Of a stretch of 64,000 nt of DNA, positions 27,113 to 61,637 are shown one piece after another. Source of the DNA: an uncultured Planctomycetia bacterium (lineage in GTDB: Bacteria; Planctomycetota; Planctomycetia; Pirellulales; Thermoguttaceae); contig CAWDRV010000004.1 in NCBI GenBank assembly GCA_963804825.1, positions 271,278 through 335,277 on the forward strand. The letters run 5' to 3'. Position 1 is the stretch's first letter, and each line of letters starts with the position of its first letter. The position numbers were made by a program, and so were the translations under genes. The notes beneath the pieces are model-generated. The model did no database searches, was not told the DNA's origin, and saw nothing but the letters and a program-made list of their open reading frames with translations.

Positions 27113-27122
27113 CTGACAACAT

Positions 27123-27195: not shown

Positions 27196-27202
27196 CTGAC
27201 AT

Positions 27203-27284: not shown

Positions 27285-27295
27285 CTGAGGAATTG

Positions 27296-27362: not shown

Positions 27363-27364
27363 AC

Positions 27365-27429: not shown

Positions 27430-27438
27430 GCCACTTGC

Positions 27439-27530
27439 GACCGGGTACGCAAATTGGCATAGCGGCGCGACCAACCTTCGGTCGGTGCCCGAGAGCCTCG
27501 TGCCTGTGGGTTCGACTCCCACCTCGGTCA
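27439..27530 (+). tRNA. Class-II-like tRNA with reverse-orientation hairpin repeat occupying the anticodon-arm position (loop AACCTTC)
   Basis: Acceptor gaccggg/ctcggtc. D-arm CGCAAATTGGCATAGCG. The anticodon-position segment CGACC-AACCTTC-GGTCG is part of GCGCGACCAACCTTCGGTCGGTGCCC. Variable arm GAGAGCCTCGTGCC. T-arm gtggg-TTCGACT-cccac. Confidence 0.4.
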
Positions 27531-27544
27531 CTGACAAGGAAAAC

Positions 27545-27617
27545 GATCCCGTGGTCCAACGGCGAAGACGCCTGGGTGACAACCAGGAAAGCGATGGTTC
27601 GACTCCATCCGGGATCA
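27545..27617 (+). tRNA. tRNA-Val(GAC)
   Basis: Acceptor gatcccg/cgggatc. D-arm GTCCAACGGCGAAGAC. Anticodon stem cctgg/ccagg with loop GTGACAA. T-arm gatgg-TTCGACT-ccatc. Confidence 0.7.
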
Positions 27618-27711
27618 TGTTGGAAAAACGGTCTGTAGGTGTTTCGGCAGCACACCTCCTCGGTAAAGAGGAAGACCCGGTTCATCTCCGGGACGGACCT
27701 CTTGATGATGC

Positions 27712-27782
27712 GGGCCGCTGGTCCAACGGGAAGACGCTTGGTTTGCACCCAGGCAATCGGGGTTCGATTCCCCGGCGGTCCA
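27712..27782 (+). tRNA. tRNA-Ala(UGC)
   Basis: Acceptor gggccgc/gcggtcc with G3-U70, discriminator A. Anticodon stem cttgg/ccagg with loop TTTGCAC. T-arm cgggg-TTCGATT-ccccg. Confidence 0.8.
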
Positions 27783-27791
27783 CTGAAATAC

Positions 27792-27879
27792 GGAAGGTAG
27801 CCGGATACCGGGTTGCCGGGCCGCCCCGCTAAGGCGGTTCTCCCCTGTGGAGATGAGGGTTCAACTCCCTTGCCTTCCG
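27792..27879 (+). tRNA. tRNA-Ser(GCU), class II, non-canonical (C33)
   Basis: Acceptor ggaaggt/gccttcc, discriminator G. Anticodon stem ccgcc/ggcgg with loop CCGCTAA. Variable hairpin TCTCC-CCTGT-GGAGA. T-arm gaggg-TTCAACT-ccctt. Confidence 0.65.
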
Positions 27880-27898
27880 CTTGGTGTGTCGGGTTGAC

Positions 27899-27969
27899 GC
27901 CCCGATAGTGAAACGGAAATCATGCCTCGCTTCTAACGAGGCGATCCAGGTTCAACTCCTGGTCGGGGT
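27899..27969 (+). tRNA. tRNA-Arg(UCU)
   Basis: Acceptor gccccga/tcggggt. Anticodon stem cctcg/cgagg with loop CTTCTAA. T-arm ccagg-TTCAACT-cctgg. Confidence 0.75.
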
Positions 27970-27990
27970 GCTGGCGGAGACAGTTATATA

Positions 27991-28066
27991 TGGTGTCCGT
28001 GGTGTAGCGGTTCCTGCACGCCTGGCTGTGAACCAGGAGGTAGGGGTTCGATTCCCCTCGGATACC
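27991..28066 (+). tRNA. tRNA-His(GUG) with encoded G-1 and C73
   Basis: G at -1, acceptor gtgtccg/cggatac, discriminator C. Anticodon stem cctgg/ccagg with loop CTGTGAA. T-arm agggg-TTCGATT-cccct. Confidence 0.8.
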
Positions 28067-28096
28067 CCTGGGGAGAATTGTGGGAAGGAGAACGTT

Positions 28097-28693
28097 ATGG
28101 TCACCAAGGTACTCCAGCGGCCGACGCTGGTGCTGAACCGCAACTGGCAGCCGGTGAACGTCGCCACCGTGACGCGGGCACTGGTGCTGCTGTGGAACGA
28201 GTCTGCGCGCGTCGTGGACCCGGCCGACTACCAGCTCTACACCTGGGCCGACTGGGCCAAGCTGCGGCCGGGCAACGGCGAGGACTGCATCCAGGCGGTG
28301 AGGTTCAAGCTGCGGGTGCCGGAAGTGGTCGCACTGAGCGGCTACGATCGGCTGCCGACGGCCCACGTGACCTTCAGCCGCCGGAACATTTTCAAGCGGG
28401 ACCACTACACCTGCCAGTACTGCGGCGCCCAGCCGGGCAGCGATGAACTGACGCTGGACCACGTCCTGCCGCGTTCCCAGGGTGGCGTGTCGGGTTGGGG
28501 GAACTGCGTGCTGGCCTGTGTGGCCTGCAACAAGCGGAAGGCCGATCGGACACCGGAGCAAGCACGGATGCACCTGCGCCGTAAGCCGGTCCGGCCGACG
28601 TGGAAGCCGCTCTATGCGGATCACGAGGTGCGGATCGAGAGCTGGTCGAAGTTCGTCAGCGAAGCGTACTGGAACGTAAGGCTTGAGACCTGA
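28097..28693 (+). CDS. HNH endonuclease
   Basis: ATG at 28097 with RBS GGAAGGAGAA. HNH motif CQYCGAQPGSDELTLDHVLPRSQGG...NCVLACVACNKRK. 198 aa. Embedded in the tRNA array; the larger listed ORF 27881..28693 overlaps tRNAs and is spurious. Confidence 0.8.
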   Translation: MVTKVLQRPTLVLNRNWQPVNVATVTRALVLLWNESARVVDPADYQLYTWADWAKLRPGNGEDCIQAVRFKLRVPEVVALSGYDRLPTAHVTFSRRNIFKRDHYTCQYCGAQPGSDELTLDHVLPRSQGGVSGWGNCVLACVACNKRKADRTPEQARMHLRRKPVRPTWKPLYADHEVRIESWSKFVSEAYWNVRLET

Positions 28694-28736
28694 GACCTGA
28701 GACCTGAGACCTGAGGCTTGAGGCTTGAGTGGTGAG
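28681..28736. repeat. Tandem heptad repeats (GCTTGAG/ACCTGAG x8)
   Basis: gcttgag acctgag acctgag acctgag acctgag gcttgag gcttgag tggtgag overlaps the HNH stop codon. An inverted complement array lies at 29117-29196. Confidence 0.7.
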
Positions 28737-28740
28737 GAAG

Positions 28741-29121
28741 TTAGGCACTTCGGCGAAGAGACCGCACTAGACCTGCCAGGACCTTTGCGGTCTCGTCCGC
28801 CTGTTGTGCGACTTTCTGGGCGGCATCGTCCGGCACGTATCCTAGGCGATGAGCGACCGTAAGCTGGTACTGGACCTCACGCGATGAACCAAACGCCATG
28901 TCGAGAAAACGAATGTAGTCGGCCTGCGAGTGCCTGGCGCAGCCCTCGACGATATTCGAGGCAATGGAGATTGCGGCACGACGCAATTGGATGGTCAGTC
29001 CGAACTGCTCCTGCCTAGGAAATGTCTTGGTAATTGAATAGATCGACAGAACAAGATTGTCGGCTAACTCGAACGCACGGAGTTTTCGATGGTCTCGCAT
29101 CGCTGTATTGTGCCACTTCAA
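28741..29121 (-). CDS. Four-helix-bundle protein (23S rRNA intervening-sequence protein family, TIGR02436-like)
   Basis: MRDHRKLRAFELADNLVLSIYSITKTFPRQEQFGLTIQLRRAAISIASNIVEGCARHSQADYIRFLDMAFGSSREVQYQL matches the conserved family pattern (FGLTSQLRRAA.SI..NIAEG). The start may be the Met at 29100 rather than 29121. Confidence 0.7.
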   Translation of the reverse strand: MKWHNTAMRDHRKLRAFELADNLVLSIYSITKTFPRQEQFGLTIQLRRAAISIASNIVEGCARHSQADYIRFLDMAFGSSREVQYQLTVAHRLGYVPDDAAQKVAQQADETAKVLAGLVRSLRRSA

Positions 29122-29196
29122 GCCTCACAACTCAAGCCTCAGGCCCCAGGCCTCAAGCCTAAGGCCCCAGGCCTCAAGCCTAAGGCCTCAGGCCTA
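29117..29196. repeat. Tandem heptad/21-bp repeats (CTCAAGC/CTAAGGC/CCCAGGC), inverted complement of the 28681-28736 array
   Basis: caagcctcacaactcaagcctcaggccccaggcctcaagcctaaggccccaggcctcaagcctaaggcctcaggcct. Together with the left array it can form a long imperfect stem around the 4HB gene. Confidence 0.65.
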
Positions 29197-29200
29197 TTAC

Positions 29201-29270
29201 AGGAGTGTCCTCCTGGGAGAGGAAGCGGCCTCCAAAGCCGCTGCACGGGGTTCGAATCCTCGCGCTCCTG
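29201..29270 (+). tRNA. tRNA-Trp(CCA)
   Basis: Acceptor aggagtg/cgctcct, discriminator G. Anticodon stem gcggc/gccgc with loop CTCCAAA. T-arm cgggg-TTCGAAT-cctcg. Confidence 0.75.
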
Positions 29271-29273
29271 CTT

Positions 29274-29345
29274 GCCGACGTGGCCGAAAGGCAAGGCGGC
29301 GGTCCTGTAAACCGCATGATGCTGGTTCGAATCCAGTCGTCGGCT
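29274..29345 (+). tRNA. tRNA-Thr(UGU), non-canonical (C33)
   Basis: Acceptor gccgacg/cgtcggc. D-arm GCCGAAAGGCAAGGC. Anticodon stem gcggt/accgc with loop CCTGTAA. T-arm gctgg-TTCGAAT-ccagt. Confidence 0.6.
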
Positions 29346-29356
29346 TTGGTACGTTT

Positions 29357-29428
29357 GTCCCGATGGTGTAGCGGATCGCACGGGGCTCTCCTAAGGCCCT
29401 GGCCCTGGTTCGACTCCAGGTCGGGACA
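29357..29428 (+). tRNA. tRNA-Arg(CCU)
   Basis: Acceptor gtcccga/tcgggac. D-arm GTGTAGCGGATCGCAC. Anticodon stem gggct/ggccc with loop CTCCTAA. T-arm cctgg-TTCGACT-ccagg. Confidence 0.75.
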
Positions 29429-29434
29429 CTATTC

Positions 29435-29506
29435 GTCTCGATGGTGTAGCGGATCGCATAGGACCCTCCGAAGGTCCAGGTCCAGGTTCGACTCCTGGTC
29501 GAGACA
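29435..29506 (+). tRNA. tRNA-Arg(CCG)
   Basis: Acceptor gtctcga/tcgagac. Anticodon stem ggacc/ggtcc with loop CTCCGAA. T-arm ccagg-TTCGACT-cctgg. Confidence 0.75.
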
Positions 29507-29509
29507 TTT

Positions 29510-29582
29510 GCCCTGCGAGTGTGCCGGATTAGCACGGCAGACTACGAATCTGCAAGACGGGGTTCGATTCCTCGGCGGGGCG
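29510..29582 (+). tRNA. tRNA-Arg(ACG)
   Basis: Acceptor gccctgc/gcggggc, discriminator G. Anticodon stem gcaga/tctgc with loop CTACGAA. T-arm cgggg-TTCGATT-cctcg. Confidence 0.75.
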
Positions 29583-29593
29583 CTGAAACGAAT

Positions 29594-29666
29594 GTCCTCG
29601 GAGTGTGCCGGATAAGCACGCGACCGTGCGAAGGTCGTAGACCAGGTCCAATTCCTGGCGAGGACG
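29594..29666 (+). tRNA. Arg-type tRNA body with anticodon arm CGACC-GTGCGAA-GGTCG (GCG; stem identical to the hairpin-repeat core), T-loop TCCAATT
   Basis: Paralog of 29510 (same D-arm GTGTGCCGGATAAGCAC). Acceptor gtcctcg/cgaggac. Purine at position 32, anticodon GCG. Confidence 0.45.
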
Positions 29667-29690
29667 CTTGACAATTCGGCGCTGGAGCCA
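29667..29690. repeat. Direct repeat DR1 (CTTGACAATTCGGCGCTGGAGCCA): promoter-like TTGACA plus a copy of the first 13 nt of tRNA-Cys
   Basis: 21 of 24 positions identical to 30734-30757, which is the true 5' end of tRNA-Cys. The two repeats flank a 1.04-kb lower-GC insert. Confidence 0.6.
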
Positions 29691-29859
29691 CAGCATAGCA
29701 TTTGGGCGGCGGTCGCCCATCGCAGATGTAAGCGGGCCAACTGGCGCACCCCACCACAATTCGGTGCGACAGCGCATCGTGTCGGGCCATAGCCCGCCCG
29801 AGAATGCGCTAATCTCACTGTGGATAACAAGGGATTCCCAGTCAACGCGGAGAAATGCA

Positions 29860-30738
29860 ATGGCCATCAATTACCAACGAGCGAGTGAACTGCTACTAGA
29901 GACCCAACAAGCAATGCAGTGCGACGAAAGCACGCGTCTGTGCGAAGCGGTGGGCAAGTTGCTGGATGCGCGTCTATGTGGGGCTGATCCTTGGGACTGG
30001 CGCTACAACACCACGCATTGGGCATTGGATGTGGTCAATGTCTGTAAGGAGATCGGGTACAGCGTTGCATGGATGCGAGCGTTGGCTCGCTACTGCTCGG
30101 AGTCGGAGGAGCAGGATCGGCAATCCGTCGAGGGCCTCGTGTCGTATTATGCGGACAACGCTGCAACGAGGATCAGTTCGTGCCGTGACAAACTCGCGCT
30201 CCTTGCATGGTCGTATTATTGCCCATTCAACCCTGACAAGAAGGACGACGTCTTGAGTTTTGAGCAGGTTCACGCCCGATTGACCACCCCGCTTAGGTTC
30301 GGCCTCCACTTCAACGGTCACAATGAGTTCCTCGTCGAACTGAACAAGCTCCTGGGATCAGGCTTTGAAAGGGCTATTGCCTACCGACACAAAAAGGTAC
30401 ATCGCATGGAACCGCGCGTTATGATGCGTAAGCCCGAGGTCCCCGACCAACGATGTTACATGTTTGCGGTAACGACAGAAAAGGACGTTCGCGGATTCGA
30501 CGATAAGCTCAAGAAGATGTACCCAGATGATGGGTTTCGAGCAGAAGTCCGACAGGGGTGCTTCCTCGATGGCGTGCTTTTTGACCGGCGAGCGCCCGAG
30601 GAATTGCTCTGGCACTTCGAGGATTTCGACGGATTCACTTATCCTTGTTGGAAGAGTCTATGTGATGCGACCGCGGGCTCGTGCGAGATACTGTTACGTC
30701 GTGAACCAATGCTTTCAAAGGCTGGCCAAGGCACTTGA
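29860..30738 (+). CDS. Hypothetical protein (cargo of insertion within tRNA array; lower GC)
   Basis: ATG at 29860 with RBS GGAGAAA. 292 aa, no recognisable motifs. About 50% GC against about 65% for the flanks. Confidence 0.5.
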   Translation: MAINYQRASELLLETQQAMQCDESTRLCEAVGKLLDARLCGADPWDWRYNTTHWALDVVNVCKEIGYSVAWMRALARYCSESEEQDRQSVEGLVSYYADNAATRISSCRDKLALLAWSYYCPFNPDKKDDVLSFEQVHARLTTPLRFGLHFNGHNEFLVELNKLLGSGFERAIAYRHKKVHRMEPRVMMRKPEVPDQRCYMFAVTTEKDVRGFDDKLKKMYPDDGFRAEVRQGCFLDGVLFDRRAPEELLWHFEDFDGFTYPCWKSLCDATAGSCEILLRREPMLSKAGQGT

Positions 30739-30757
30739 CAACGTGGCGCTGGAGCCA
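30734..30757. repeat. Direct repeat DR2 (CTTGACAACGTGGCGCTGGAGCCA), overlaps 5' end of tRNA-Cys
   Basis: Matches DR1 at 29667-29690. Confidence 0.6.
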
Positions 30758-30816
30758 GACGGCACGGCGGCTGCCTGCAAAGCAGCTTCAAGTGGGTTCG
30801 ACTCCCACCGGCGCCT
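30745..30816 (+). tRNA. tRNA-Cys(GCA)
   Basis: Acceptor ggcgctg/cggcgcc, discriminator U. D-arm GCCAGACGGCACGGC. Anticodon stem gctgc/gcagc with loop CTGCAAA. T-arm gtggg-TTCGACT-cccac. Confidence 0.8.
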
Positions 30817-30927
30817 TTTTGGAAGCAATGATACGGCCGGGCCAACGGCGCAGCGCCGCCCTGTCCTCCAGCGAGGCGGTCGGCGACGTGCGTTCCGTAC
30901 ATGGGTTCTGACCGATGGTCGTGTCAA

Positions 30928-31000
30928 GCGAGGTTAGCTCAGTGGATAGAGCACCAGACCAATAATCTGGCTGTCGCGGGTTCGACTCCCGTACCAACAC
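30928..31000 (+). pseudogene. Pseudo-tRNA (canonical D-arm TAGCTCAGTGGATAGAGC, loop CCAATAA, 3' acceptor does not pair with 5' end)
   Basis: T-arm gcggg-TTCGACT-cccgt is followed by accaaca, but the 5' acceptor is gcgaggt. Anticodon stem ccaga/tctgg with A34 and C33. Confidence 0.35.
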
Positions 31001-44769: not shown

Positions 44770-44925
44770 TTACGATGCCTTACGGCTTGTGCTCCAGTTG
44801 CTTGGCCTTGGCGAAGTCCTGGTTGGCCTTGTCCAACTGGCCGTTTTGCTGATAGGCCAGGCCGCGATTGCTGTACGCCAGAGCGAATCCCGGGTCCAGC
44901 CGGATGGCTTCATCTAATCGCAACA
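44770..44925 (-). pseudogene. TPR-repeat fragment (C-terminal part only)
   Basis: Minus-strand translation ...LDPGFALAYSNRGLAYQQNGQLDKANQDFAKAKQLEHKP*. No start codon or N-terminal body. Confidence 0.3.
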
Positions 44926-45005
44926 AAATGGGCCCGGGGGGCGACAACCTTGCCCCTCCGGGCCCCTGGTCCCCGGTCCTTGCTTCGATCCCCGGTTCTT
45001 ACTTA

Positions 45006-45148
45006 GTTTCTGTTGCGGAAGCGGTTTTCGACGGCGGGTAGGGTGGGACGAGCACAGCGAAGTCCCACCATAATACGCGAAAAACCGATGGTGGGTCTTC
45101 GCTGCGCTCGACCCACCCTACCAATTTCCAACCTTCCGCAACAGAAAC
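45006..45148. repeat. Nested palindromic element (~140 bp): outer IR GTTTCTGTTGCGGAAG, inner 35-bp arms GGTAGGGTGGGACGAGCACAGCGAAGTCCCACCAT
   Basis: The arms at 45038-45072 and 45088-45122 are near-perfect reverse complements. A second copy of the family is at 56835-56965. Confidence 0.75.
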
Positions 45149-47346
45149 TACTTAATGGTCATGCCGTCGAGCCAGGCGCGGAACGGCCCGCCGCCCCACG
45201 GGAAGAACTCGATGGTCATCCAATTCATGGTGGCGGGGACCTCTCCCTCGAGATTCCACACTTCGTTGCCGTGCAGCGGGATGCTTTTGTGGATCCAATC
45301 GAGACCGCCCTGCCAATTCAGCGGGTCGTCGTTCGGCCGGAGTTGGCAGAACTTGGTGGGCGACTCGTAGATCACCACGGTGGGCATCAGGCCTTTCCAG
45401 GCGTGGGTGTTGTTGTTGATCATCTTGACCCAGAAGACCAGGCTGGTCTTGCCCGCCAAGGGGATCCCGGCGTTCTTCGTGCGCGGATAGAGCAGGCGGA
45501 TGGCGGCTTCGCTGGCGGGCGTGACGCGGAGGGCCAGCGACGACTGGCCCACCAGGTGGACGTCGCGGTCGTCGCTGATCTCGACCTTGGTTTTCGGGTC
45601 TTTGACGGGCGTGACCTTTGCGTCCGAGGCCTTCTGCCCACGCGGCACGTGCCACTGATAGTTGCGGCCTTGGAGTTCTTCCCAGGACCAGTCGGCGGCA
45701 TGGCCCTCGGTGGCGGGCTCAACGACGTCCTCGTAAGCGAGGAAGTCGCCATAGGCGAGGTCCGAGAAGCGGCCGTTGGTGACGGTCATGCCGATGCTGT
45801 GCGGGCCGACCTTGTGAAAGGCGTGGGTGACGCGGGGTCCGGTGGCGGCGGTCGTCCCGTCGTTGAAGTCCCAGCGGAAGGTGAGCGGATGACCGTCGGG
45901 GTCGGTGCTGCCCGAGGCGTCGAACACCAGCTCCTGGCCCGTTTTGACGGGGGTCAGCTCGCCCGGTTTGGCGGCAATCGGCAGGACCAGCTTGGCGTGG
46001 GGCGAGCGGGTGATCTTGGGATCGTCCCTGTGGATCGTGATGTTGGTGTTGAAGCCGCCCTGAATGTCGCCGTCGCGGTTGCCTCCCATGACGTTGCCGG
46101 CGATGTCGATCCAGTCGGCCGACTCCATGTAGATGCCCCAGCGGTTGTCGCGGATGACGTTGTTTTCGATGACCCAGTGGAAGACCCTGGATTGCTGCTT
46201 GGGCGACGCGTTGATGGCCAAGCAGATGCCGGCGCCGTTATTGCCGACGCACTTGTTGCCGCGAACGATGATATGGTTGCACCAGCCGAGCATGATGATG
46301 CCGCCGGCGCCGTTTTGCGGCCCGTTCGGCACGTACTTGAACTGCCACGGCGCGTTGTGCAGCCCGCTGGGCACACCGTTGTAGCAGCACTCGTTGTCCT
46401 CGACGATCGACTCGTTCGACAGGCCGATCCAGATGCCGTGGCTGCCGTGGTTGGCCTTGTTGTGGCGATAGATGTTGCGCGGGCATTGGGCCTCGATGCA
46501 ATTGTTGTTGGCAAACGAGGTGTCGTTCGACTCGATCACGTTGCCGCTGCTGGCACCACCGGACGGACGCAGGAACAGCCCGTCGCCGCCGTAGGTGATG
46601 TCGTTGTCGGCGAAGTAGTTGTCGTTCGAGCAGGCCAGGACCAGCACGCCGGCCGAATCGCGGGCGTGGACCTCGCCCGGACGGATGCGGATGCCATAAC
46701 TGAGATTGTTCTTCAGGAAGCGGTTGCGGCAGGCGGCCCACAGCCTCACGCAGTTGTTCGAGGTGACGGAGAAGTTGTTTTCCTCGACCAGGTTGTCGTT
46801 CGAGTCGGCCAACTGGCAGGCGTCCCAGACCCGATTGGCCTTATTCTTGCGGAGGGTGGAATGATCGACGCCCTCCAGCACGATGCCGCCGTGCTGGCCG
46901 ATTTCTCCCCAGCCTGCCTCAGGATAGTGGAAATTGTCGGAGAAGTTGCAGTTCTCCACCAGCCACTTGCTGCCTTTTTCGACTTTCAGCCCGATGTCCC
47001 AGCCCTTGGCATTGACGTTCCTCAGGGTAACGTTCGAGACGCCCTTGGCCGCGATGCCGATGCCTTTGAAGTCTTTCGGATCGCCCTGGCGGGCGCCGAT
47101 GACCCATGCCCCGTGGCCGTCGATGGTGATGTTCGAGGCCTTGATGACGATGGGTCCGTAGGTCTTCGCGGGGTCGAGCACGGTGTCGGCGGTGATTTCC
47201 AGCGGGGGCGGGCCCGCGGGCGCCGGCGCCTGGGCACGCGCGATGGCGGCCGCCACGCACACGGCCCCGAGCGCGGACAACACCCACGTCCGCGAGATTT
47301 CAAAACGCGACCAGCCGCGACGGCGAGAACAAGACGGTGCAATCAT
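45148..47346 (-). CDS. Secreted right-handed beta-helix (pectate-lyase-fold) protein with PKD domain
   Basis: Signal peptide MIAPSCSRRRGWSRFEISRTWVLSALGAVCVAAAIARA. Parallel beta-helix repeats (NITIDGHG, NVTLRNV, NCNFSDN). PKD TFRWDFNDGTTAATGPRVTHAFHKVGPHSIGMTVTNG. Intact. Confidence 0.75.
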   Translation of the reverse strand: MIAPSCSRRRGWSRFEISRTWVLSALGAVCVAAAIARAQAPAPAGPPPLEITADTVLDPAKTYGPIVIKASNITIDGHGAWVIGARQGDPKDFKGIGIAAKGVSNVTLRNVNAKGWDIGLKVEKGSKWLVENCNFSDNFHYPEAGWGEIGQHGGIVLEGVDHSTLRKNKANRVWDACQLADSNDNLVEENNFSVTSNNCVRLWAACRNRFLKNNLSYGIRIRPGEVHARDSAGVLVLACSNDNYFADNDITYGGDGLFLRPSGGASSGNVIESNDTSFANNNCIEAQCPRNIYRHNKANHGSHGIWIGLSNESIVEDNECCYNGVPSGLHNAPWQFKYVPNGPQNGAGGIIMLGWCNHIIVRGNKCVGNNGAGICLAINASPKQQSRVFHWVIENNVIRDNRWGIYMESADWIDIAGNVMGGNRDGDIQGGFNTNITIHRDDPKITRSPHAKLVLPIAAKPGELTPVKTGQELVFDASGSTDPDGHPLTFRWDFNDGTTAATGPRVTHAFHKVGPHSIGMTVTNGRFSDLAYGDFLAYEDVVEPATEGHAADWSWEELQGRNYQWHVPRGQKASDAKVTPVKDPKTKVEISDDRDVHLVGQSSLALRVTPASEAAIRLLYPRTKNAGIPLAGKTSLVFWVKMINNNTHAWKGLMPTVVIYESPTKFCQLRPNDDPLNWQGGLDWIHKSIPLHGNEVWNLEGEVPATMNWMTIEFFPWGGGPFRAWLDGMTIK

Positions 47347-47692
47347 GGCGAGACTCTCCAAGGTGGGGCGGTCATGCGGCAACGGGATCGACCGCGGTCG
47401 TTTTTTGGTAGGAAACACCCGCGGAAGGACGCACGCCGGATGACTGCTACAAGGGGGGGTAAACTTAGGCAGGACGGCAACGAACGCCCCTCATTATACT
47501 CTGGCGCGAAGCAAGAGCAACCAAATTCCCGAAATCGATCTTCGGGCCCCTACTTTTTTCGTTCCCATGTCGCCACTACAATAACGCCCGCGGCGGCGTG
47601 GTGGGCTTGTCGTCCGGCGTCCTCGGGGCCGTCGGCCGGCGGTCGTTTTTTTCAGGGGTCATCGGCACCGGGCATGAAGCGGAGGGTCAAGC

Positions 47693-48942
47693 ATGAATTG
47701 GGCGGTTTATCTTGAACTCAGCGGGGTGTTTCTGCTGGAATTTGCCGTCTGGGGCGCGTGGATGCCGGTGTTGGCCGCCCGATTGCTGGGGCCGTTGAAG
47801 CTGAGCGGGAAGCAGACCGGGTGGATATATGCCACTCTGCCGCTGGCCAGCCTGATCGCCTTTCCTTTGGCCGGCCACTTGGCCGACGGATACGTGGACC
47901 TCCGCACAATCTTGATCGTCTCGCACGCGGCGGGGGTGGCGCTGCTCTATCTGGCCTCGCGGATGGAAAAATTCGGCGGGCTGTTCGTGACCATGTTTCT
48001 TTACTCGCTGTTTTATGGGGCCACGCTGCCGCTGGTCAACGGCTTGGTCTTTCGTCATGTCGCCGAGACCGGCGTTGCAGAGGCAACCATCATCCCGTGG
48101 ATTTTCGTTTGGGGGCCCATCGGCTGGTCGCTGACGGGATACGTGCTGGCCGGCCTGCGGCAATGGGGGATCACGAAGGCCGACGGCAGCGACGCCCTGA
48201 AACTGGCGGCCGTCCTGTCGCTGGTCATGGTTCTGATTTGCGTGGCGGCGCCACTGTCGCCTCCGGGAAACAAGGGCACGCCGATTCTCCAGGCATCTCC
48301 CTGTTCCGCGAACCCAATTTCGCGATCTTTATGGTCGTTTCCTTGGTCTTGGCCGCCACGACCTCGTTCTACTTCCAGGGGACGGCCCAGTTCCTCCAGG
48401 ACATCGGCGTCTCCGGCAAGAACGTCTCGGCGGCCATGAGCATCGCTCAAGCCGTCCAGGCGGTGGCGACCATGACGATCCTCGGTCTCCTTTATTACCA
48501 CGGGCCAAAGTGGACGGTCGCGCTGGGCGCCGGCTGCTGGGTACTGATGTACGCGATCTACGTCGGCAGCCGGCAACGATGGCTCATCGTCCCGGCGCAA
48601 GCGCTGCACGGGGTGGCCTACCTGTTGGCGTTCAACGCCGGCTGGCTGTTCGTCAAGGACATTGCCCCGGAGGAAATCCAGAATTCCGTCCAGTCGCTTT
48701 TCAACCTGGCGATCGTGGGCGTCGGGCCGTTCCTCGGCACGCAACTGGCGGGTGTGGTCATGGACCGGTTCGCCGTGGAGGGCAAGTTCCAGTGGCGGAA
48801 AATATTCTTGGTGCCGCTGCTTTGCACGCTCCTGGGAACGATCGTTTTCGCCGCGGCGCTGCACGATCCGCAGAAGATGTCGGGTGAAAAGGCCCCCGCC
48901 GGCAAGACCGCCCAGCCCGCGACGGCGACCGACAAGCCGTAA
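47693..48942 (+). CDS. MFS transporter (nucleoside:H+ symporter-like), frameshift near 48290
   Basis: 12-TM pattern split across ORFs 47693..48439 and 47758..48942. Confidence 0.65.
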
Positions 48943-49002
48943 CCTTCCCGGTTTGGACATAAGCCGCGGCAAGGTTGTCGGCGGCCCGATCCTCCTGTAT
49001 AA

Positions 49003-50126
<1,124 letters not shown>

Positions 50127-50477
50127 TCGTAACCGTGCACGCCCCCGGCAGAGAAACCGCGGATTAACGCAGATAAACGCGGACAGAGATGGATTTCATC
50201 AACTGCGTTGATCCGCGTTTATCCGCGGTTCCCTCGCTGGATTTTCCGATCTGTGAACGGTTACCTGTAATCTGCCAAGTGCCCATGAATTTTCCACGAC
50301 GAGGAGGGCGGACATGGTTGTCCGTCCTCCTTCCTCGTTTTTTTCCTGGTCTCGGGTTCGATTTCCCCGCCGCGGCCCGGACCCGTATAATACACGGAGG
50401 ATCGTGGGGGACTGTCCCGATTTTCGTCCGACGAAAATGGGACTGTCCCCTTGGGAAGTGCCTCCGTGAACCGAACG

Positions 50478-51903
50478 ATGTCCACCACCCTGAACAGGAC
50501 GAGACTGAGCGACAGCGGATACGACTTCATCGACGAGCCGTATCTCTTGGGGCTGTTGAAGCGGCCGTCGTCGCCGGGCCGCCTGCGCGACGTGATCGCC
50601 AAGAGCATGGCCAAGGAATCGCTCGACGTCGAGGAGACCGCCGTGCTGTTGGCCGCCGCCGACGCCGAGAGCGTCCAGCGGATTTTCGACGCGGCCCGGC
50701 AGCTCAAACGCAACGTCTACGGCAATCGCATCGTGTTGTTTGCGCCGCTGTACGTCGGCAACGAATGCACCAACGATTGCCAATACTGCGGCTTCCGCCG
50801 GTCCAACCGCGAGGCGGTCCGCCGGACGCTTTCGCCGGCCGACCTTCGCGCCCAGGTCGAGGCCCTGGAAAGCCGCGGCCACAAGCGGATCATCCTCGTC
50901 TTCGGCGAGCACCCGTCGTATACGCGCCCCGTACATGGCCGATTGCATCCGGCAGGTCTATGCGGTCAAGGTCGGCCGCGGCGAGATTCGCCGGGTGAAT
51001 CTCAATGCCGCCCCGCTGGACCACGCCGGCTACGAGATCATCCAGGCAGCCGGCATCGGCGCCTATCAAATCTTCCAGGAAACCTATCACCACGAAACCT
51101 ATGGCCGCGTGCACCCCCGCGCGACGGCCAAGGCCGACTATCTCTGGCGGTTGGACGGCGTCGCCCGGGCCATGGAATCGCAGTGCGGCGACGTGGGCAT
51201 CGGCGCCCTGTTCGGACTGTACGACTGGCGTTTCGAGGTGCTTGCCCTGGTGGCGCATGCCAGGCACTTGCAAAAGCATTACCAGGTCGGGCCGCACACG
51301 ATCAGCTTCCCGCGGCTGCGGCCGGCCAGCGGCGTGCGGTTGGACGACACCTGCCTGGTCGGCGATGAGGCGTTCAAGCGGCTGGTGGCCGTGCTGCGGC
51401 TGGCGGTGCCCTACACGGGCTTGATCTGCACCGCGCGCGAGCCCCCCAGCTCCGGCGCGAGGTCCTGGCCCTGGGCGTCTCGCAAATCGACGCCGGCAGC
51501 CGCGTCGAATTGGGCGGTTATACCGAGGTCGGCGACGCCCAGGTCATGGAACGCGGCAATTCGAGCTCGGCGACATCCGCAGCCTCGACGCCGTGTTGGG
51601 CCAACTGGTGACCGACGGCTACATCCCCAGCTTTTGCACCGCCTGCTATCGGCTCGGCCGCACCGGCGAGCACTTCATGGAGTTTGCCATCCCCGGCTTC
51701 ATCCAGAACTTTTGCACCCCCAACGCCCTGAGCACGTTGATGGAATACTTGCAGGACTACGCCTCGTCGGAGACCTATGCGGCCGGCCATCGGCTGATCG
51801 AGCAAGAGCTGGCGAAGATGCCCGAGGGAAAACGCAAGACGGAACTGATCGACCGGCTCCGCCGCATCCGCGAGACCGAGCAGCGGGATTTGTATTTTTG
51901 AAA
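50478..51903 (+). CDS. ThiH/HydG-family radical SAM enzyme (2-iminoacetate synthase-like), >=3 frameshifts
   Basis: CTNDCQYCGF radical-SAM cluster motif. QETYHHETYGRVHP. The C-terminal GYIPSFCTACYRLGRTGEHFMEFA is typical of ThiH. Pieces lie in ORFs 50451..51368, 50740..51924 and 51593..51901. Confidence 0.7.
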
Positions 51904-52009
51904 GGCAGTGAGCCGGCGGCGTAAGCCGGCGGATGAGGCTTGCCGCGATGGGTCCCGGGCAGTAGAATCAGACGCACCAGAACACAGCCCCGATCGGTGG
52001 TTTTCAGCC

Positions 52010-52549
52010 ATGACCGCGAAACAATTCTACGATTGGCAAACTGCCGGCGGCACCGACGACGTCATGCGGCTGGTGGACTGCCTTGAGAGGGCGGATATCG
52101 CTTGGTGCGCCATCGGCGGCGTGGCTGTGAATCACTGGGCGAAAGAACCCATGGTGACCCAGGACGTTGATTTCGTCGTGGCCAGCAACGCCGTCCCGCG
52201 CACCGTCGCGTTGCTCGAGGAAGCGGGATTCCGATCCGAAAGATTCGAGTGGTCCGTCAACTTCCAGGGCCGCTCGAAGCTGACCCTTCAACTCAGCACC
52301 GAGGAATTCTACCGGGAGTTTCCCGCCCGAGCCGTGCCAGCCGACGTTCACGGCATTCTCTTGCGGGTGGCCTCGCTGGAGGACACGCTGCGGGGAAAGA
52401 TCAAAGCATGGGCCGAACCGTCGCGGAGGCAAAGCAAGCGGATCAAGGACCTCGGGGATATCGCCCGGCTGGTGGAAGCGCATCCCCGGCTCTGGGACCA
52501 TTTGCCGGACGAACTGAAACGGCAAATTCAACGGCCGGAGGGGAAATAG
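52010..52549 (+). CDS. Nucleotidyltransferase-fold protein (DVDFVV motif)
   Basis: MTAKQFYDWQ...CAIGGVAVNHWAKEPMVTQDVDFVV. Minimal NTase-like pattern; function not established. Confidence 0.45.
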   Translation: MTAKQFYDWQTAGGTDDVMRLVDCLERADIAWCAIGGVAVNHWAKEPMVTQDVDFVVASNAVPRTVALLEEAGFRSERFEWSVNFQGRSKLTLQLSTEEFYREFPARAVPADVHGILLRVASLEDTLRGKIKAWAEPSRRQSKRIKDLGDIARLVEAHPRLWDHLPDELKRQIQRPEGK

Positions 52550-52573
52550 TCGCTTACGCCTCCGGCCCGCTTT

Positions 52574-53685
52574 TCATCGCAGCGTCGGGCCGTCGATCAC
52601 GTCGATGTGCTGGGCCATGAGGTGGCTGGCCTGCTGCTCGGGCACGTAGCCGCGGGTGCCGTTGATGCCCACTTGCCGGCCGAGATAATAGCGCAGGTTC
52701 ATGCCGGGCTCGGGCGTCACGTAGCAACGCACGCGGCCGTAATCGTCCAACAGGGCGTATTGCGGCGCCCCGATCCGCGACGGACTCACCCGCGCCAGCT
52801 TGCCCACCCCGTCGTACCGCCCGTCGGTGTCGAATTGCGGCGCGACGCCGCGTAGCCGCGGGCCGACGCGGGCCGATTGGCGGTCCATGCGGTCGATCTC
52901 GTCGTGCATCGCGTTGATGTGGTCGTAACGTTGTTTCATGTCCTCGAAGCGGGCGATCTTGCCCAACAGCAGCCGGGCCCGGCCGCGATCGACCGCGGTC
53001 TCGGCCTGGTCCAACAACGCCTCGCTCCGCGTGCGCAACTCGCCGAACTGCCAAACGGTCGGCTCCTCGACCACGACGCTCGAAAGATCGAGTTCGATCC
53101 GGTTGACCGCGGTCTCAAAGGGCGCGGCCGAGGCGGCCCGACCGTCGCCACGGGTCTTCCGCAGACCGTTGTAGGGGAAGTCGGCGTCGACGAACCGGCC
53201 CGAAATCCAGCGGAACTCGCCCGCCGGCGGGGCAATCTTGACCCAGGCGCCGGCGGCCGTGCCGGCGTCCGGACCCTCTCGCTTGGCCTCCAAGACTTCG
53301 ACCAACTCGCCGCGGTGCAGGCGGACCTGGATCACGTCGCGGATGTCGCTGAAGCGGCTGCCCACGCGGGCGGCCACGTGCTCTTCGCTCACGGTGGCGA
53401 GGTTCTTGTGGCCCAGTTCCAGGTACCGCCCGGAAACCCAGGAAAAACTGCCCCGGCCGGCCGAATGGCCAGCCAACCGCCGGGATCCTGGCGATAGACC
53501 TCGACCGGATCGCCCGTCTTGAGCTTGTCGGTGGGGTAGTAGTTGTCGCCCGGACCGCTGCGGACGTAGACATCGTTGGCGATGACGTAAGCCTTGTAGG
53601 GGAAGGTCTGGCCCGGGGCGGCCCGCGCCGTGGCAACCCAACAGCCAAGAAAACAGCACGAAATCGCGGCAAGGGACAATCGCAT
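52574..53685 (-). CDS. Secreted SH3b-domain protein (frameshift near 53440)
   Basis: Signal peptide plus SH3b YVIANDVYVRSGPGDNYYPTDKLKTGDPVEVYRQDPGGWLAI in ORF 53389..53685. The rest is in ORF 52574..53887. Confidence 0.5.
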
Positions 53686-53764
53686 GGTTCCATACCTCCC
53701 AGGACAGTGGGAAGAGATCGGGTTGATTTCGAGTTAGGCGGTTTCTTCGTTCGGGCGAAGCAGT

Positions 53765-53915
53765 AGTGCCACGGGCATCTTGCCCGTGCCCTCGTGCGGG
53801 GTGCCACGGGCATCTTGCCCGTGCTGCAATCGGCATTGGCACACGCACCAGTGTTGGCTTCGGGCACTGGCAAGATGCCAGTGGCACCCGTGCCAGATGC
53901 CAGTGGCACCCGTAT
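53765..53915. promoter_or_regulatory. Cluster of short palindromes/direct repeats in divergent intergenic region (2x CACGGGCATCTTGCCCGTG, CACTGGCAAGATGCCAGTG, 2x ATGCCAGTGGCACCCGT)
   Basis: 7-3-7 inverted repeats ACGGGCA-tct-TGCCCGT at 53770-53788 and 53805-53823. ACTGGCA-aga-TGCCAGT at 53866-53884. They lie between the SH3b gene start and leuS. Confidence 0.4.
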
Positions 53916-54132
53916 CCGTGCTACCCAACGCTATGTGAAAAGTGGCTGGAAAAGTAGACCGAGAAAAGTAGACCGCGGACTTGTAGCGAAAATGGGCCGC
54001 CGATTCAAGGGCAATTGTGGTTTGCCGCGGAGGGCCGGTTCTCGATAAAATCATGGTTTCGTCTTCCGCTCCCTCTTCCTCCGGGAGGGGGGGAGACCGT
54101 TTTCACGCCCTTTCCCTGAAGCAGGCTGTGCC

Positions 54133-56803
<2,671 letters not shown>

Positions 56804-56834
56804 CGACGGCGCAATCGCTTCGGGATGCGAATTA

Positions 56835-56965
56835 GTTTCTCTCGCGGAAGGCTGAGAATTTGTAGGGTGGGTCAAGCGCAGCGAGACCCACCATCAGTCT
56901 TTCGCGAATTTTGGTGGGTCTCGCTGCGCTTGACCCACCCTACCATAGTTTTCCGCAACAGAAAC
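56835..56965. repeat. Nested palindromic element, second copy (outer IR GTTTCTCTCGCGGAAG; arms GTAGGGTGGGTCAAGCGCAGCGAGACCCACCAT)
   Basis: Same architecture and about 85% identity to 45006-45148. Sits between the convergent leuS and GYD genes. Confidence 0.75.
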
Positions 56966-56969
56966 GCAT

Positions 56970-57254
56970 TTAGATGCCGGCCACCAGGGCGTCGAAATCC
57001 TGCACGGAAACGGCCGGCGACGTGTTGAACGCGATGCCGGTCAGCTTGCTCAGGGCGACGGACGCCTTCATCGCGTCGCCGTTGCCGGGAAACGACACGA
57101 CGAACACCAGGTCGTACCGCCCGAGCGTCGCATACAGGCCAATCACCTCGCCGCCGTAACGCTTGATCAACTCCGTCGCCTTTTCGGTCCGCTGCCGGCT
57201 GATTTGCCGCGAGCCCTCGGGCGAGTACCGTCCGAACATGATGAACGTGGACAT
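56970..57254 (-). CDS. GYD-domain protein
   Basis: MSTFIMFGRYSPEG...GEVIGLYATLGRYDLVFVVSFPGNGDAMKASVAL matches the GYD family pattern. 94 aa. Confidence 0.65.
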   Translation of the reverse strand: MSTFIMFGRYSPEGSRQISRQRTEKATELIKRYGGEVIGLYATLGRYDLVFVVSFPGNGDAMKASVALSKLTGIAFNTSPAVSVQDFDALVAGI

Positions 57255-59418: not shown

Positions 59419-59607
59419 AGGATGCTTCCTTTCCCCTCCCGCGGGCAATAAGTTCGAGGAATGCCCCGCTTCTACCGGGGGCGCATATCCTCGTAGTTGC
59501 TTTCGGACCGGCACAAACCATAGCTCTAGACAAGCGGAGAATAATGGTTTTGCACCATCCGTAGGGGCATCGACGAAGGTGCCGCCTTTGCCGCCTTCTG
59601 CGAAAGA

Positions 59608-60405
59608 AACCGGGACAGGTCCGGTATTGACAAGATAGGTAAGATTCTCTTATCCTCTACGCCATGCCGCGTGCTGCCAGAGTCGCCCCCGGTGGAATGG
59701 TCTTCCATGTCCTCAACCGAGCCATTGCGCGGGTTCGGATATTCGAGAATAATGGGGATTATGCCGCGTTCGAGCAGACCTTGGCGGAGACGTTGCGACA
59801 ACGGCCCATGCGGGTATGCAGCTATTGTCTGATGCCGAACCACTGGCACTTTCTCCTTTGGCCGGAACGCGACGGCGAATTGGCGGCATTCCTGCAGCGA
59901 CTCACCATTGCTCACGTTCGGAAGTGGCAAGAATATCGGGGCGTCACTGGCACGGGGCATTTGTACCAGGCGCGTTACAAATCGTTTCCCGTGGAGGATG
60001 ACGAGCATTTCCTGGCGGTGGCCCGGTACGTGGAACGCAACCCGCAACGTGCTGGGTTGGTGTCGCGCGCGGAAGACTGGCAGTGGGGTAGCCTGTGGCG
60101 GCGATGCCGAAACGCCATCGCGCCGAGTATTCCGCTGTCGGCGTGGCCGATGCCGATACCCGCCTCTTGGTTGGATTGGGTGAACGCCGCGGAGGACGAG
60201 GACCAGTTGAAGCAATTGCGGACGAGTATTGGACGAGGCCGGCCGTTTGGTCGCGTGGAGTGGCAGCACCGCGTGGCCAAGCAGCTTCGCTTGGAGTCGT
60301 CGTTTCGGGAACCGGGCAGGCCCAAGGGATTCAAACGTTCGTGATCAACAAACCATCAAGACGTTAAATTACCCATTTTCACAATACCGGACCTGTCCCG
60401 GTTTC
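59608..60405 (+). mobile_element. REP-associated tyrosine transposase unit (RAYT gene flanked by inverted REP copies)
   Basis: REP AACCGGGACAGGTCCGGTATTG at 59608-59629 and its reverse complement CAATACCGGACCTGTCCCGGTTT at 60383-60405 bracket the RAYT CDS. Confidence 0.7.
59664..60344 (+). CDS. REP-associated tyrosine transposase (RAYT, IS200/IS605 TnpA-like HuH Y1)
   Basis: HuH motif CLMPNHWHFLLW and catalytic Tyr region GHLYQARYKSFPV. 226 aa. Confidence 0.8.
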   Translation: MPRAARVAPGGMVFHVLNRAIARVRIFENNGDYAAFEQTLAETLRQRPMRVCSYCLMPNHWHFLLWPERDGELAAFLQRLTIAHVRKWQEYRGVTGTGHLYQARYKSFPVEDDEHFLAVARYVERNPQRAGLVSRAEDWQWGSLWRRCRNAIAPSIPLSAWPMPIPASWLDWVNAAEDEDQLKQLRTSIGRGRPFGRVEWQHRVAKQLRLESSFREPGRPKGFKRS

Positions 60406-60461
60406 TGCCTCAAGAAACGACGCGGTGTCAAAGCGGTCTCTTTCCAGAAAGGAGCTGGATC

Positions 60462-61487: not shown

Positions 61488-61500
61488 TGAGGGCAGGGGG

Positions 61501-61582
61501 AAAACCGGGACAGGTCCGGTATTGGCAAAATAGATAATGTAATAAACATCCCAATTATACAATACCGGACCTGTCCCGGTTT
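61501..61582. repeat. REP doublet (two inverted copies of the same REP separated by 34-bp AT-rich spacer)
   Basis: AAACCGGGACAGGTCCGGTATTG at 61501-61523 and CAATACCGGACCTGTCCCGGTTTT at 61558-61582. Confidence 0.7.
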
Positions 61583-61637
61583 TATTCCTTCCGCCCTCCG
61601 CCTTCCTCCTTCCTCCTTCCTCCTGTATGCTGAACGA

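What the first reader, a model, noticed from the sequence alone, without database searches (positions are those of the whole stretch)
45006..56965. Two copies of a ~135-bp nested palindrome at the 3' ends of convergent genes
Each copy has an outer inverted repeat (GTTTCTSTYGCGGAAG ... TTCCGCAACAGAAAC) that encloses two 35-bp arms which are reverse complements of each other (GGTAGGGTGGGWCRAGCRCAGCGARRYCCCACCAT). Each arm in turn contains its own GGTGGG...CCCACC hairpin. One copy follows the beta-helix gene stop (45148). The other fills the gap between the leuS stop (56803) and the GYD gene stop (56970). They are strong bidirectional terminator candidates, or a MITE-like or REP-like family distinct from the RAYT-associated REP.
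Basis: seen in the sequence. Interest (0 to 1): 0.55.

Follow-up and report, generated by a model that had tools for sequence, protein, structure and literature searches.

The report
Small transposon carrying a REP doublet
The two nested palindromes are copies of a small non-coding mobile element, an inverted-repeat shell that duplicates 6 bp of its target and carries a pair of classic REP hairpins, so they are ordinary bacterial junk-like repeats that landed on gene ends rather than purpose-built terminators.

Summary
Copy A (45006-45148) and copy B (56835-56965) are nested palindromes far beyond chance.

The element has two layers of different kinds:
- **Inner layer.** This is a head-out doublet of a GTAG-tagged REP hairpin (GTAG-GGTGGGnC-GAGCGCAGCGA-GnCCCACC). 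A truncated scan found the REP in 41 assemblies, nearly all Planctomycetota. Five of five genes of one 184-aa REP-associated tyrosine transposase (RAYT) clade are flanked by it. That RAYT is not in the window. The window's own Y1 gene has a different repeat.
- **Outer layer.** GTTTCTGTTGCGGAAG behaves as the terminal inverted repeat of a MITE-like shell. It occurs without any REP inside (7 metagenome copies). It is flanked by 6-bp direct repeats (48 of 66 positions against 17 expected).

Copy A has an orthologous empty site in a relative whose beta-helix protein is 88% identical. The whole 143-bp unit inserted into TAAGTA on the stop codon of the beta-helix gene and left the protein unchanged.

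Neither copy has a U-tract. The beta-helix gene keeps its own conserved terminator-like hairpin 35 nt further on. The REP/MITE reading is supported and the terminator reading is not. I rate it a new member of known kinds, of modest interest.

The parts
45000..45005 (.). Copy A, left target-site duplication TACTTA
   Evidence: It is identical to 45149-45154. The hexamer is present once at the orthologous empty site in L132.
45006..45021 (+). Copy A, left terminal inverted repeat GTTTCTGTTGCGGAAG
   Evidence: It is 16/16 complementary to 45133-45148.
45038..45069 (+). Copy A, left REP arm (GTAG head, stem GGTGGGAC/GTCCCACC, loop GAGCACAGCGAA)
45070..45089 (.). Copy A, central spacer of the doublet (ATAATACGCGAAAAACCGAT)
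   Evidence: It is homologous to the spacer of copy B and of doublets in L035, L044, L061 and L021.
45090..45121 (-). Copy A, right REP arm
45133..45148 (-). Copy A, right terminal inverted repeat. Its last base is the G of the beta-helix gene's TAG stop on the minus strand.
45149..45154 (.). Copy A, right target-site duplication TACTTA
45148..47418 (-). Beta-helix/PKD gene. The insertion rebuilt its stop codon from TAA to TAG and left the protein unchanged.
   Evidence: Pfam hits. C-termini are compared (...MTIK* against ...MTVK* in L132).
44922..44965 (-). Terminator-like GC hairpin plus AUUUUGUU of the beta-helix gene, 35 nt beyond the element. It is context and not part of the element.
   Evidence: Fold. 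It is conserved in the element-free ortholog L132.
56829..56834 (.). Copy B, decayed left target-site duplication GAATTA
   Evidence: It matches 56966-56971 (GCATTT) at 4 of 6 positions.
56835..56850 (+). Copy B, left terminal inverted repeat GTTTCTCTCGCGGAAG
56862..56892 (+). Copy B, left REP arm (GTAG, stem GGTGGGTC/GACCCACC, loop AAGCGCAGCGA)
   Evidence: (I10).
56913..56943 (-). Copy B, right REP arm
   Evidence: (I10).
56950..56965 (-). Copy B, right terminal inverted repeat
56966..56971 (.). Copy B, decayed right target-site duplication GCATTT. It overlaps the GYD gene's stop codon at 56970-56972.

Best explanation
Each copy is a composite, non-autonomous mobile element with two layers.

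**Shell.** The shell is a MITE-like unit bounded by 16-bp terminal inverted repeats (GTTTCTGTTGCGGAAG). It integrates as a whole by a staggered cut that duplicates 6 bp of an AT-rich target. In these GC-rich genomes such targets often overlap a stop codon. This step is shown for copy A by an empty orthologous site. I infer that the enzyme is a DDE-type transposase, but none was found.

**Core.** The core is a head-out doublet (REPIN type) of a GTAG-tagged REP hairpin. A 184-aa RAYT clade related to E. coli TnpA-REP is flanked by this REP family wherever I could look. By analogy with E. coli, that RAYT binds and cuts the hairpins on single-stranded DNA and spreads or maintains naked doublets without any target duplication. 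The flanking association is shown. The activity is inferred.

The doublet either inserted into the shell or was captured by it, and the composite was then copied as one unit.

The position at gene 3' ends follows from target choice and from tolerance of insertions there. Any effect on mRNA 3' ends or on translation termination is a by-product.
For: REP layer:
- These hold 55 head-out doublets and 89 single arms. The doublet boundary is exactly GTAG...CTAC and the modal length is 80-84 nt.
- L013:4355-4906 is a RAYT. It scores 180 bits on NF047646 (cutoff 80) and matches E. coli TnpA-REP 4ER8 at E = 2.4e-37. It sits between two doublets of this REP.
- A frameshifted homolog in L097 lies next to five arms. 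Orthologs in L116, L117 and L118 are each REP-flanked on both sides, and L116 shows a compensatory change from GGTGGG/CCCACC to GGCGGG/CCCGCC.
- REP doublets show no target duplication: a mean of 1.5 of 6 flank matches over 56 doublets.

Shell layer:
- The outer motif lies within 45 nt outside the GTAG head in 18 of 196 arms (at least 12 of 16 bases matching), against 2 of 980 controls.
- Seven metagenome copies have 3-27 nt between the repeats and no REP arm. L120 and L121 are the same 49-nt unit in two different contexts.
- In L063 the shell holds a different doublet.
- The 6-nt flanks match at 48 of 66 positions, against 17.4 +/- 3.6 expected and a maximum of 31 in 20,000 trials. Three copies are perfect, including copy A.
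- With the element and one hexamer removed, the window aligns colinearly with L132 across the junction, 148 of 168 positions identical. The ortholog ends AAG TAA.
- Three further orthologs also lack the element.
Against: - No transposase gene bounded by the outer repeat was found, so the mobilising enzyme of the shell is unknown.
- The cognate RAYT is not in the 64-kb window, and the source genome could not be retrieved. RAYT linkage is therefore shown for the family and not for this genome.
- Only about 10% of REP arms carry the outer motif. Many of those carry it on one side only. The history of capture, insertion or decay is unresolved.
- Four of the seven short copies contain a GTAG or a CACCCTAC fragment in the loop. 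They could be deletion derivatives of composites and not ancestral shells.
- The hairpin stem is nearly invariant, and position 7 is usually mismatched. Covariation support for the arm hairpin is therefore thin.
- Gene-context statistics rest on a crude GC3-based gene caller.
Confidence: 0.75

Rival explanations
1. The elements are host-selected bidirectional transcription terminators or mRNA 3'-end stabilisers, kept at the ends of convergent genes for that function.
For: - Both strands form very stable hairpins of -94 to -99 kcal/mol.
- Both copies start 0-32 nt from a stop codon.
- Family members are enriched in convergent spacers (30 elements in 113 spacers) over divergent ones (10 in 105).
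- In E. coli, REPs within 15 nt of a stop codon stall ribosomes (PMC12306157, citing its reference 17).
Against: - There is no T-run after the stems, and neither scan flags the elements.
- Copy A is an insertion that L132-L135 lack.
- The beta-helix gene retains a conserved hairpin plus AUUUUGUU 35 nt beyond the element.
- Target-site duplications and copies in unrelated contexts show mobility and not in-place conservation.
Confidence: 0.1
2. The whole 131-143 bp unit is simply a long REPIN. The outer repeat is part of the RAYT substrate, and a RAYT alone mobilises the unit.
For: - The core is a RAYT-associated REP doublet.
- About half of the outer-repeat ends are preceded by TAG or GTAG, like a REP head.
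- REP dimers nested in longer palindromes have been described in other phyla (PMC3733652, section 7).
Against: - The outer repeat is flanked by 6-bp target duplications, with a matching empty site. By established knowledge of IS200/IS605, HUH Y1 transposition does not produce such duplications. Naked doublets of the same family lack them.
- The outer repeat exists without the REP and also holds a different doublet.
- None of the five RAYT genes is flanked by the outer repeat.
Confidence: 0.1
3. The Y1 transposase in the window (59664-60344) mobilises the elements.
For: - It is the only Y1 gene in the window.
- A 13/16 match to the outer repeat abuts its left repeat at 59595-59610.
Against: - That match is at chance level: about 0.5 such matches are expected in the window by my calculation.
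- The gene and its orthologs L126 and L128-L131 are flanked by AAAnCGGGACAGGTCCGnTATTG. They are never flanked by the outer repeat or the GTAG REP.
- It scores below the NCBIfam RAYT cutoff.
Confidence: 0.03

Closest known systems
GTAG-tagged REPs, their head-head dimers (REPINs) and RAYTs (Nunvar 2010, PMC2817692; Bertels & Rainey 2011, PMC3116915; Di Nocera 2013, PMC3733652; E. coli TnpA-REP, PDB 4ER8)
   Same: - A 31-32 nt hairpin with an unpaired 5' GTAG.
- Inverted doublets with the GTAG heads outside.
- Many dispersed, mostly extragenic copies with a 3'-end bias.
- A RAYT gene flanked by the same REP.
- No target duplication.
- GTAG REPs were already reported in Planctomycetes (R. baltica). 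Dimers nested inside longer palindromes were already noted in A. variabilis, T. roseum and H. neapolitanus.
   Different: - The loop is large (11-12 nt) and strongly conserved (GAGCGCAGCGA).
- There is a conserved mismatch at stem position 7.
- In this sub-lineage the doublet sits inside a shell with its own terminal repeats and a 6-bp target duplication.
- For A. variabilis and H. neapolitanus, Di Nocera found no target palindromes free of REPs. Here REP-free copies exist.
Bacterial MITEs such as Correia elements, RUP and MITEAba12 (review PMC10969869)
   Same: - Non-coding and 35-143 bp long.
- Terminal inverted repeats, a target-site duplication and a strong hairpin.
- Intergenic or gene-end location.
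- Copies in unrelated contexts.
- Nesting with other small repeats, as seen for BOX, RUP and SPRITE.
   Different: - No parent IS or transposase was identified.
- The duplication is 6 bp at AT-rich hexamers that often overlap stop codons.
- The cargo is a RAYT-type REP doublet.
Rho-independent terminators
   Same: A GC-rich hairpin just after a stop codon.
   Different: - There is no U-tract.
- The stem is up to about 59 bp.
- The element is mobile and absent from orthologous sites.
- A separate canonical terminator-like site follows copy A.

Membership tests
REP / REPIN-RAYT system (GTAG superfamily) | Short imperfect palindrome with an unpaired 5' GTAG tag | tested here: met
   GTAG plus stem GGTGGGnC/GnCCCACC plus an 11-12 nt loop. 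Stem positions 1-6 and 8 are paired in more than 90% of 241 arms.
REP / REPIN-RAYT system (GTAG superfamily) | Many dispersed, mainly extragenic copies per genome | tested here: inconclusive
   This is met in relatives. One MAG alone gave at least 30 arms in a truncated sample, and 41 assemblies were hit. About 77% of placed elements lie outside called genes, although called genes cover 83% of the sequence. For the source genome only 4 arms in 64 kb could be seen, and the rest of the genome was not retrievable.
REP / REPIN-RAYT system (GTAG superfamily) | Two REPs in inverted orientation at a fixed short spacing (REPIN) | tested here: met
   There are 55 head-out doublets with a modal length of 80-84 nt. 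The window copies are 84 and 82 nt.
REP / REPIN-RAYT system (GTAG superfamily) | A RAYT gene flanked by the same REP | tested here: met
   This holds for five of five genes of one RAYT clade: L013, L097, L116, L117 and L118. L013 scores 180 bits on NF047646 (cutoff 80) and matches 4ER8 at E = 2.4e-37. It is not met inside the window itself.
REP / REPIN-RAYT system (GTAG superfamily) | No target-site duplication at REPIN boundaries | tested here: met
   A mean of 1.5 of 6 flank matches over 56 doublets, which is chance level.
REP / REPIN-RAYT system (GTAG superfamily) | RAYT binds and cleaves the REP and mobilises the doublet | not testable with these tools
   This needs biochemistry or mobilome sequencing.
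MITE (TIR plus TSD non-autonomous transposon) | Terminal inverted repeats | tested here: met
   A 16-bp repeat, perfect in copy A and in 7 metagenome copies.
MITE (TIR plus TSD non-autonomous transposon) | Target-site duplication of fixed length | tested here: met
   A 6-bp duplication: 48 of 66 positions match against 17.4 +/- 3.6 expected, and three copies are perfect.
MITE (TIR plus TSD non-autonomous transposon) | Presence/absence at an orthologous site, with one copy of the target | tested here: met
   L132 is the empty site. Flanks are colinear at 148 of 168 identical positions once the element and one hexamer are removed.
MITE (TIR plus TSD non-autonomous transposon) | A parent IS or transposase that shares the terminal repeats | tested here: not met
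   None was found in the window or in the 135 loci. The distant outer-repeat pairs in L031 are chance matches inside genes. The public collections could not be searched for repeat pairs more than 600 nt apart.
Intrinsic (Rho-independent) terminator | GC-rich hairpin followed directly by a U-tract | tested here: not met
   The hairpin is present. No T-run follows it on either strand, and the scans do not flag the elements.
Intrinsic (Rho-independent) terminator | Transcript 3' ends map to the element | not testable with these tools
   No expression data are available.

The most novel reading that the evidence does not exclude
The composite may be a doubly mobilisable element: a RAYT-type REPIN that acquired, or was captured by, the ends of a cut-and-duplicate transposon. 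Two unrelated enzymes could then spread it.

The shell's preference for AT-rich hexamers lets it land exactly on stop codons and rebuild them (TAA to TAG). That places a roughly 59-bp hairpin directly after the open reading frame without changing the protein.

Together with the REP-inside-REP-arm variants (L079, L034, L103, L073), this may also reveal a loop or apex insertion rule for REPINs, whose target choice is not known.
Probability: 0.25. Interest if true: 0.5.

Novelty: new member of a known kind. Interest (0 to 1): 0.33.

Why it matters
The result is mainly a clean annotation. It removes two 'terminator' candidates. It defines a REP family and its RAYT clade that are widespread in Planctomycetota MAGs. 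It also defines a small MITE-like shell with a 6-bp target duplication that has no entry in Rfam and no description in the literature I could search.

It has some practical value. These repeats probably break short-read assemblies: many arms in the loci lie at contig ends. They also mark gene ends.

It has modest conceptual value. The same doublet occurs naked (no duplication, RAYT-type) and inside a duplicating shell. That makes it a natural system for asking how REPINs move and whether they hitch-hike on other transposons. The stop-codon-preserving insertion is a neat example of how a GC-rich genome channels AT-seeking elements to gene ends.

Tried and rejected
- **Window Y1 gene as the mobiliser.** Rejected. 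Its orthologs carry a different terminal repeat, and the 13/16 match at 59595 is at chance level.
- **Outer repeat as the ends of an IS.** The distant pairs in L031 and L005 are chance matches. The L031 pair lies inside coding sequence.
- **Retrieving the source genome.** An identical copy of the window's Y1 protein is listed on a 767,200-bp contig. It is not on record for context look-up.
- **RAYT search in the first 115 loci.** tblastn with the window's Y1 protein found nothing. An HMM built from its homologs gave the weak hit that led to L013.
- **Covariation in the arm hairpin.** The stem is almost invariant and position 7 is usually mismatched, so this says little either way.
- **TAG of the GTAG head as a general stop codon.** A simple three-frame comparison was uninformative. 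A gene-end distance histogram then showed a spike at zero, with 16 of 101 arms.
- **Rfam.** Only the 25 tRNA matches reached threshold, so nothing at the elements.
- **Plasmid collection.** No match.
- **MAFFT global alignment of copy A against L132.** It misplaced the gap. It was redone after removing the element.
Full report
**1.

Copy A runs from 45006 to 45148 and copy B from 56835 to 56965. In each, a 16-nt outer inverted repeat (GTTTCTSTYGCGGAAG) encloses two arms of 31-35 nt. The arms are reverse complements of each other, 91% in copy A and 100% in copy B (I9 and I10). Each arm contains its own GGTGGG...CCCACC stem.

The arm pattern occurs four times in the window and never in 100 dinucleotide shuffles. 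Either strand of either copy folds as RNA at -94 to -99 kcal/mol, 12 to 15 standard deviations below shuffled sequence.

Copy A abuts the stop codon of a beta-helix/PKD gene (45148-47418, minus strand). Copy B lies between the stop of leuS (56803) and the stop of a GYD-domain gene (56970). The units are 143 and 131 bp long, not 135 bp.

**2. The inner layer is a REP doublet of a widespread family**

Each arm reads GTAG, then an 8-position stem (GGTGGGnC / GnCCCACC), then an 11-12 nt loop (GAGCGCAGCGA). That is the anatomy of a GTAG-tagged repetitive extragenic palindrome (REP).

These come from 41 assemblies, nearly all Planctomycetota MAGs (Thermoguttaceae, Pirellulales, Gemmataceae). A few are labelled as other phyla, including a Bradyrhizobium contig. 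The source genome is not among them. The best gene-level DNA identity is about 76%.

With up to four mismatches allowed, these loci plus the window hold 55 doublets and 89 single arms. The doublets have GTAG on the outside and a modal length of 80-84 nt. Conservation stops exactly at GTAG...CTAC in most copies. This is the 'head-head dimer' of Di Nocera et al. 2013 (PMC3733652) and the REPIN of Bertels & Rainey 2011 (PMC3116915). The former paper already lists GTAG REPs in Planctomycetes (R. baltica).

Stem positions 1-6 and 8 are paired in more than 90% of 241 arms. Position 7 is usually a mismatch. The stem hardly varies, so covariation is uninformative, apart from a GGCGGG/CCCGCC variant.

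**3. The cognate transposase clade**

The window's only Y1 gene (59664-60344; Pfam Y1_Tnp) is flanked by a different repeat, AAACCGGGACAGGTCCGGTATTG. Its orthologs carry that same repeat. It scores 67 bits on NCBIfam's RAYT model NF047646, below the cutoff of 80. It is not the partner of the finding's element.

An HMM search of the 115 loci gave a weak hit in L013. This turned out to be a 184-aa REP-associated tyrosine transposase:
- NF047646 scores 180 bits.
- E. coli TnpA-REP (PDB 4ER8) matches at E = 2.4e-37, with the HUH motif and the WQxRYWEH motif aligned.
- It lies between two doublets of the GTAGGGTGGG REP. One ends 30 nt before the start codon and the other begins 3 nt after the stop.

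Further members of the clade show the same arrangement:
- A frameshifted homolog in L097 lies next to a tandem run of five arms.
- Three more members on long contigs (L116, L117, L118) are each flanked on both sides by variants of the same REP.

That makes five of five. The family therefore meets the defining RAYT association. The cognate gene is not in the window, and the rest of the source genome could not be fetched.

**4. The outer layer is a different kind of element**

The outer motif (at least 12 of 16 bases matching) lies within 45 nt outside the GTAG head in 18 of 196 arms, against 2 of 980 control positions. These arms come from the window and six other assemblies. Several share an 11-nt spacer (GGYYGRAAATTT). 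Most doublets lack the outer motif, so it is not part of the basic REPIN.

A metagenome scan for the two outer repeats 0-30 nt apart found seven copies with no REP arm inside. Examples are GTTTCTGTTGCGGAAG-CAC-TTTCCGCAACAGAAAC in L122, and the same 49-nt unit in two unrelated contexts of one metagenome (L120 and L121). In L063 the same shell holds a different inverted doublet.

The decisive observation is that the six bases to the left of the outer repeat recur as a direct repeat on its right:
- TACTTA/TACTTA in copy A, TCAGTA twice in L063 and TACTGA twice in L125.
- 5 of 6 positions in L120 and L123.
- 4 of 6 positions in copy B, L074 and L121.

In total 48 of 66 positions match, against 17.4 +/- 3.6 expected and a maximum of 31 in 20,000 random trials. 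The boundaries of naked REP doublets show nothing of the kind (1.5 of 6, n = 56). By established knowledge, HUH Y1 transposition leaves no such duplication.

**5. An empty site for copy A**

The closest homolog of the beta-helix protein (88% identity) lies on L132. There the gene ends ...GTC AAG TAA CAACCGGGGATCGAGGCAAGG. In the window it ends ...ATT AAG TAG, followed by the 143-bp element, then TAAGTA AGAACCGGGGATCGAAGCAAGG.

Removing the element and one hexamer makes the two sequences colinear across the junction, with 148 of 168 positions identical. The whole composite therefore inserted as one unit into TAAGTA (gene orientation), on the stop codon. It duplicated six bases and changed TAA to TAG with no change to the protein. 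Three further orthologs (80-84% identity) also lack the element.

Stop-codon overlap is common for this shell. By my reading, it is seen for copy A, copy B, L122 (both sides), L063 and L074, which is five of eleven copies. The likely reason is that AT-rich hexamers in a 63% GC genome cluster at gene ends. That reason is inference.

**6. Not a terminator by design**

Neither copy is followed by a T-run on either strand, and the consensus scans do not flag them. The beta-helix gene keeps a GC hairpin followed by AUUUUGUU at 44922-44965, 35 nt beyond the element. This site is conserved in element-free L132.

Family members do favour gene ends. A rough gene caller placed 30 in convergent, 50 in tandem and 10 in divergent spacers, against 113, 363 and 105 such spacers available. 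In 16 of 101 arms with a co-directional gene end within 300 nt, that gene stops exactly on the TAG of the GTAG head.

In E. coli, REPs within 15 nt of a stop codon stall ribosomes (PMC12306157, citing its reference 17). A side effect on translation or mRNA stability is therefore plausible for the beta-helix gene (0 nt) and the GYD gene (5 nt). It is untested.

**7. Verdict**

The finding is a composite small mobile element: a MITE-like shell (16-bp terminal repeats, 6-bp target duplication, enzyme unknown) carrying a RAYT-type REP doublet.

Both layers belong to known kinds. Nesting of REP dimers in longer palindromes, and of small repeats in one another, has been described (PMC3733652, section 7; PMC10969869). 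What is new is the particular families, their wide distribution in Planctomycetota, and a clean empty-site demonstration that the composite moves as a unit.

I found no Rfam family at the elements, no plasmid match and no planctomycete MITE literature in the library. I rate it a new member of known kinds, with interest of about 0.33.

Noticed in passing
window 24835-30995: There is a dense array of at least 25 tRNA genes on the + strand (Rfam). Small GGGCACCGAC-GCGCAGCG-TTGGTC type hairpins lie between several of them, for example at 25092-25119, 25691-25718, 25762-25789, 24853-24876 and 26269-26292. Their loop resembles the loop of the REP arm.
   Followed up: partly
window 59602-60406 and 61492-61592: A Y1 transposase gene (59664-60344) scores below the NCBIfam RAYT cutoff. 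Inverted AAACCGGGACAGGTCCGGTATTG repeats flank it, and a free doublet of the same repeat lies at 61492-61592. Orthologs in L126 and L128-L131 carry the same terminal repeats. This is a second, separate Y1-and-repeat system in the same genome. MAG JAUWPQ holds both systems (L013 and L126).
   Followed up: yes
window 54133-56803: leuS is split into two overlapping ORFs in different frames (54133-55311 and 55157-56803), and both hit class I tRNA synthetase domains. It is a frameshift or an assembly error.
   Followed up: no
window 53766-53889: Three copies of another hairpin repeat (GTGCCACGGGCATCTTGCCCGTGCCC and its inverse) lie just upstream of leuS (I22 and I23).
   Followed up: no
window 28679-28737 and 29123-29195: Two blocks of short tandem repeats of AGGCTTG/AGACCTG type stand in inverted orientation about 385 nt apart inside the tRNA region (I1-I4).
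   Followed up: no
L079:2116-2215, L034:2799-2902, L103:5534-5636, L073:6402-6503: In a sub-family of the doublet, the loop of the right arm is expanded by a second small hairpin (GACCACGCTGCGCGTGGTGCCCC). That hairpin is the same type as the tRNA-array hairpins, so this is a REP inside a REP arm. It occurs in three MAGs.
   Followed up: partly
L063:2159-2276: Here the same outer shell, with a perfect TCAGTA duplication, carries a different inverted doublet (GTCGCCTTTCGCTTCGCGAAAG / CTTTCGCGGAGCGAAAGGCGAC). The same repeat abuts a REP doublet in L079:2090-2115.
   Followed up: partly
L097:4553-4751: One inverted arm is followed by four head-to-tail REP arms at 39-nt spacing, right next to a frameshifted RAYT gene.
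   Followed up: no
L055:118-261 and L081:6129-6272: These 144-nt doublets have a central spacer replaced by a long GACGGACGACGG-type palindrome.
   Followed up: no
loci L001-L118 (all REP arms): In 16 of the 101 arms that have a co-directional gene end within 300 nt, that gene stops exactly on the TAG of the REP's GTAG head. Many more arms lie 5-35 nt after the stop.
   Followed up: partly
L003, L008-L010, L012, L024, L025, L036, L047 and others: Many REP arms lie within 150 nt of the start of a fetched stretch that coincides with a short-read contig end. This suggests that the repeat family breaks assemblies.
   Followed up: no
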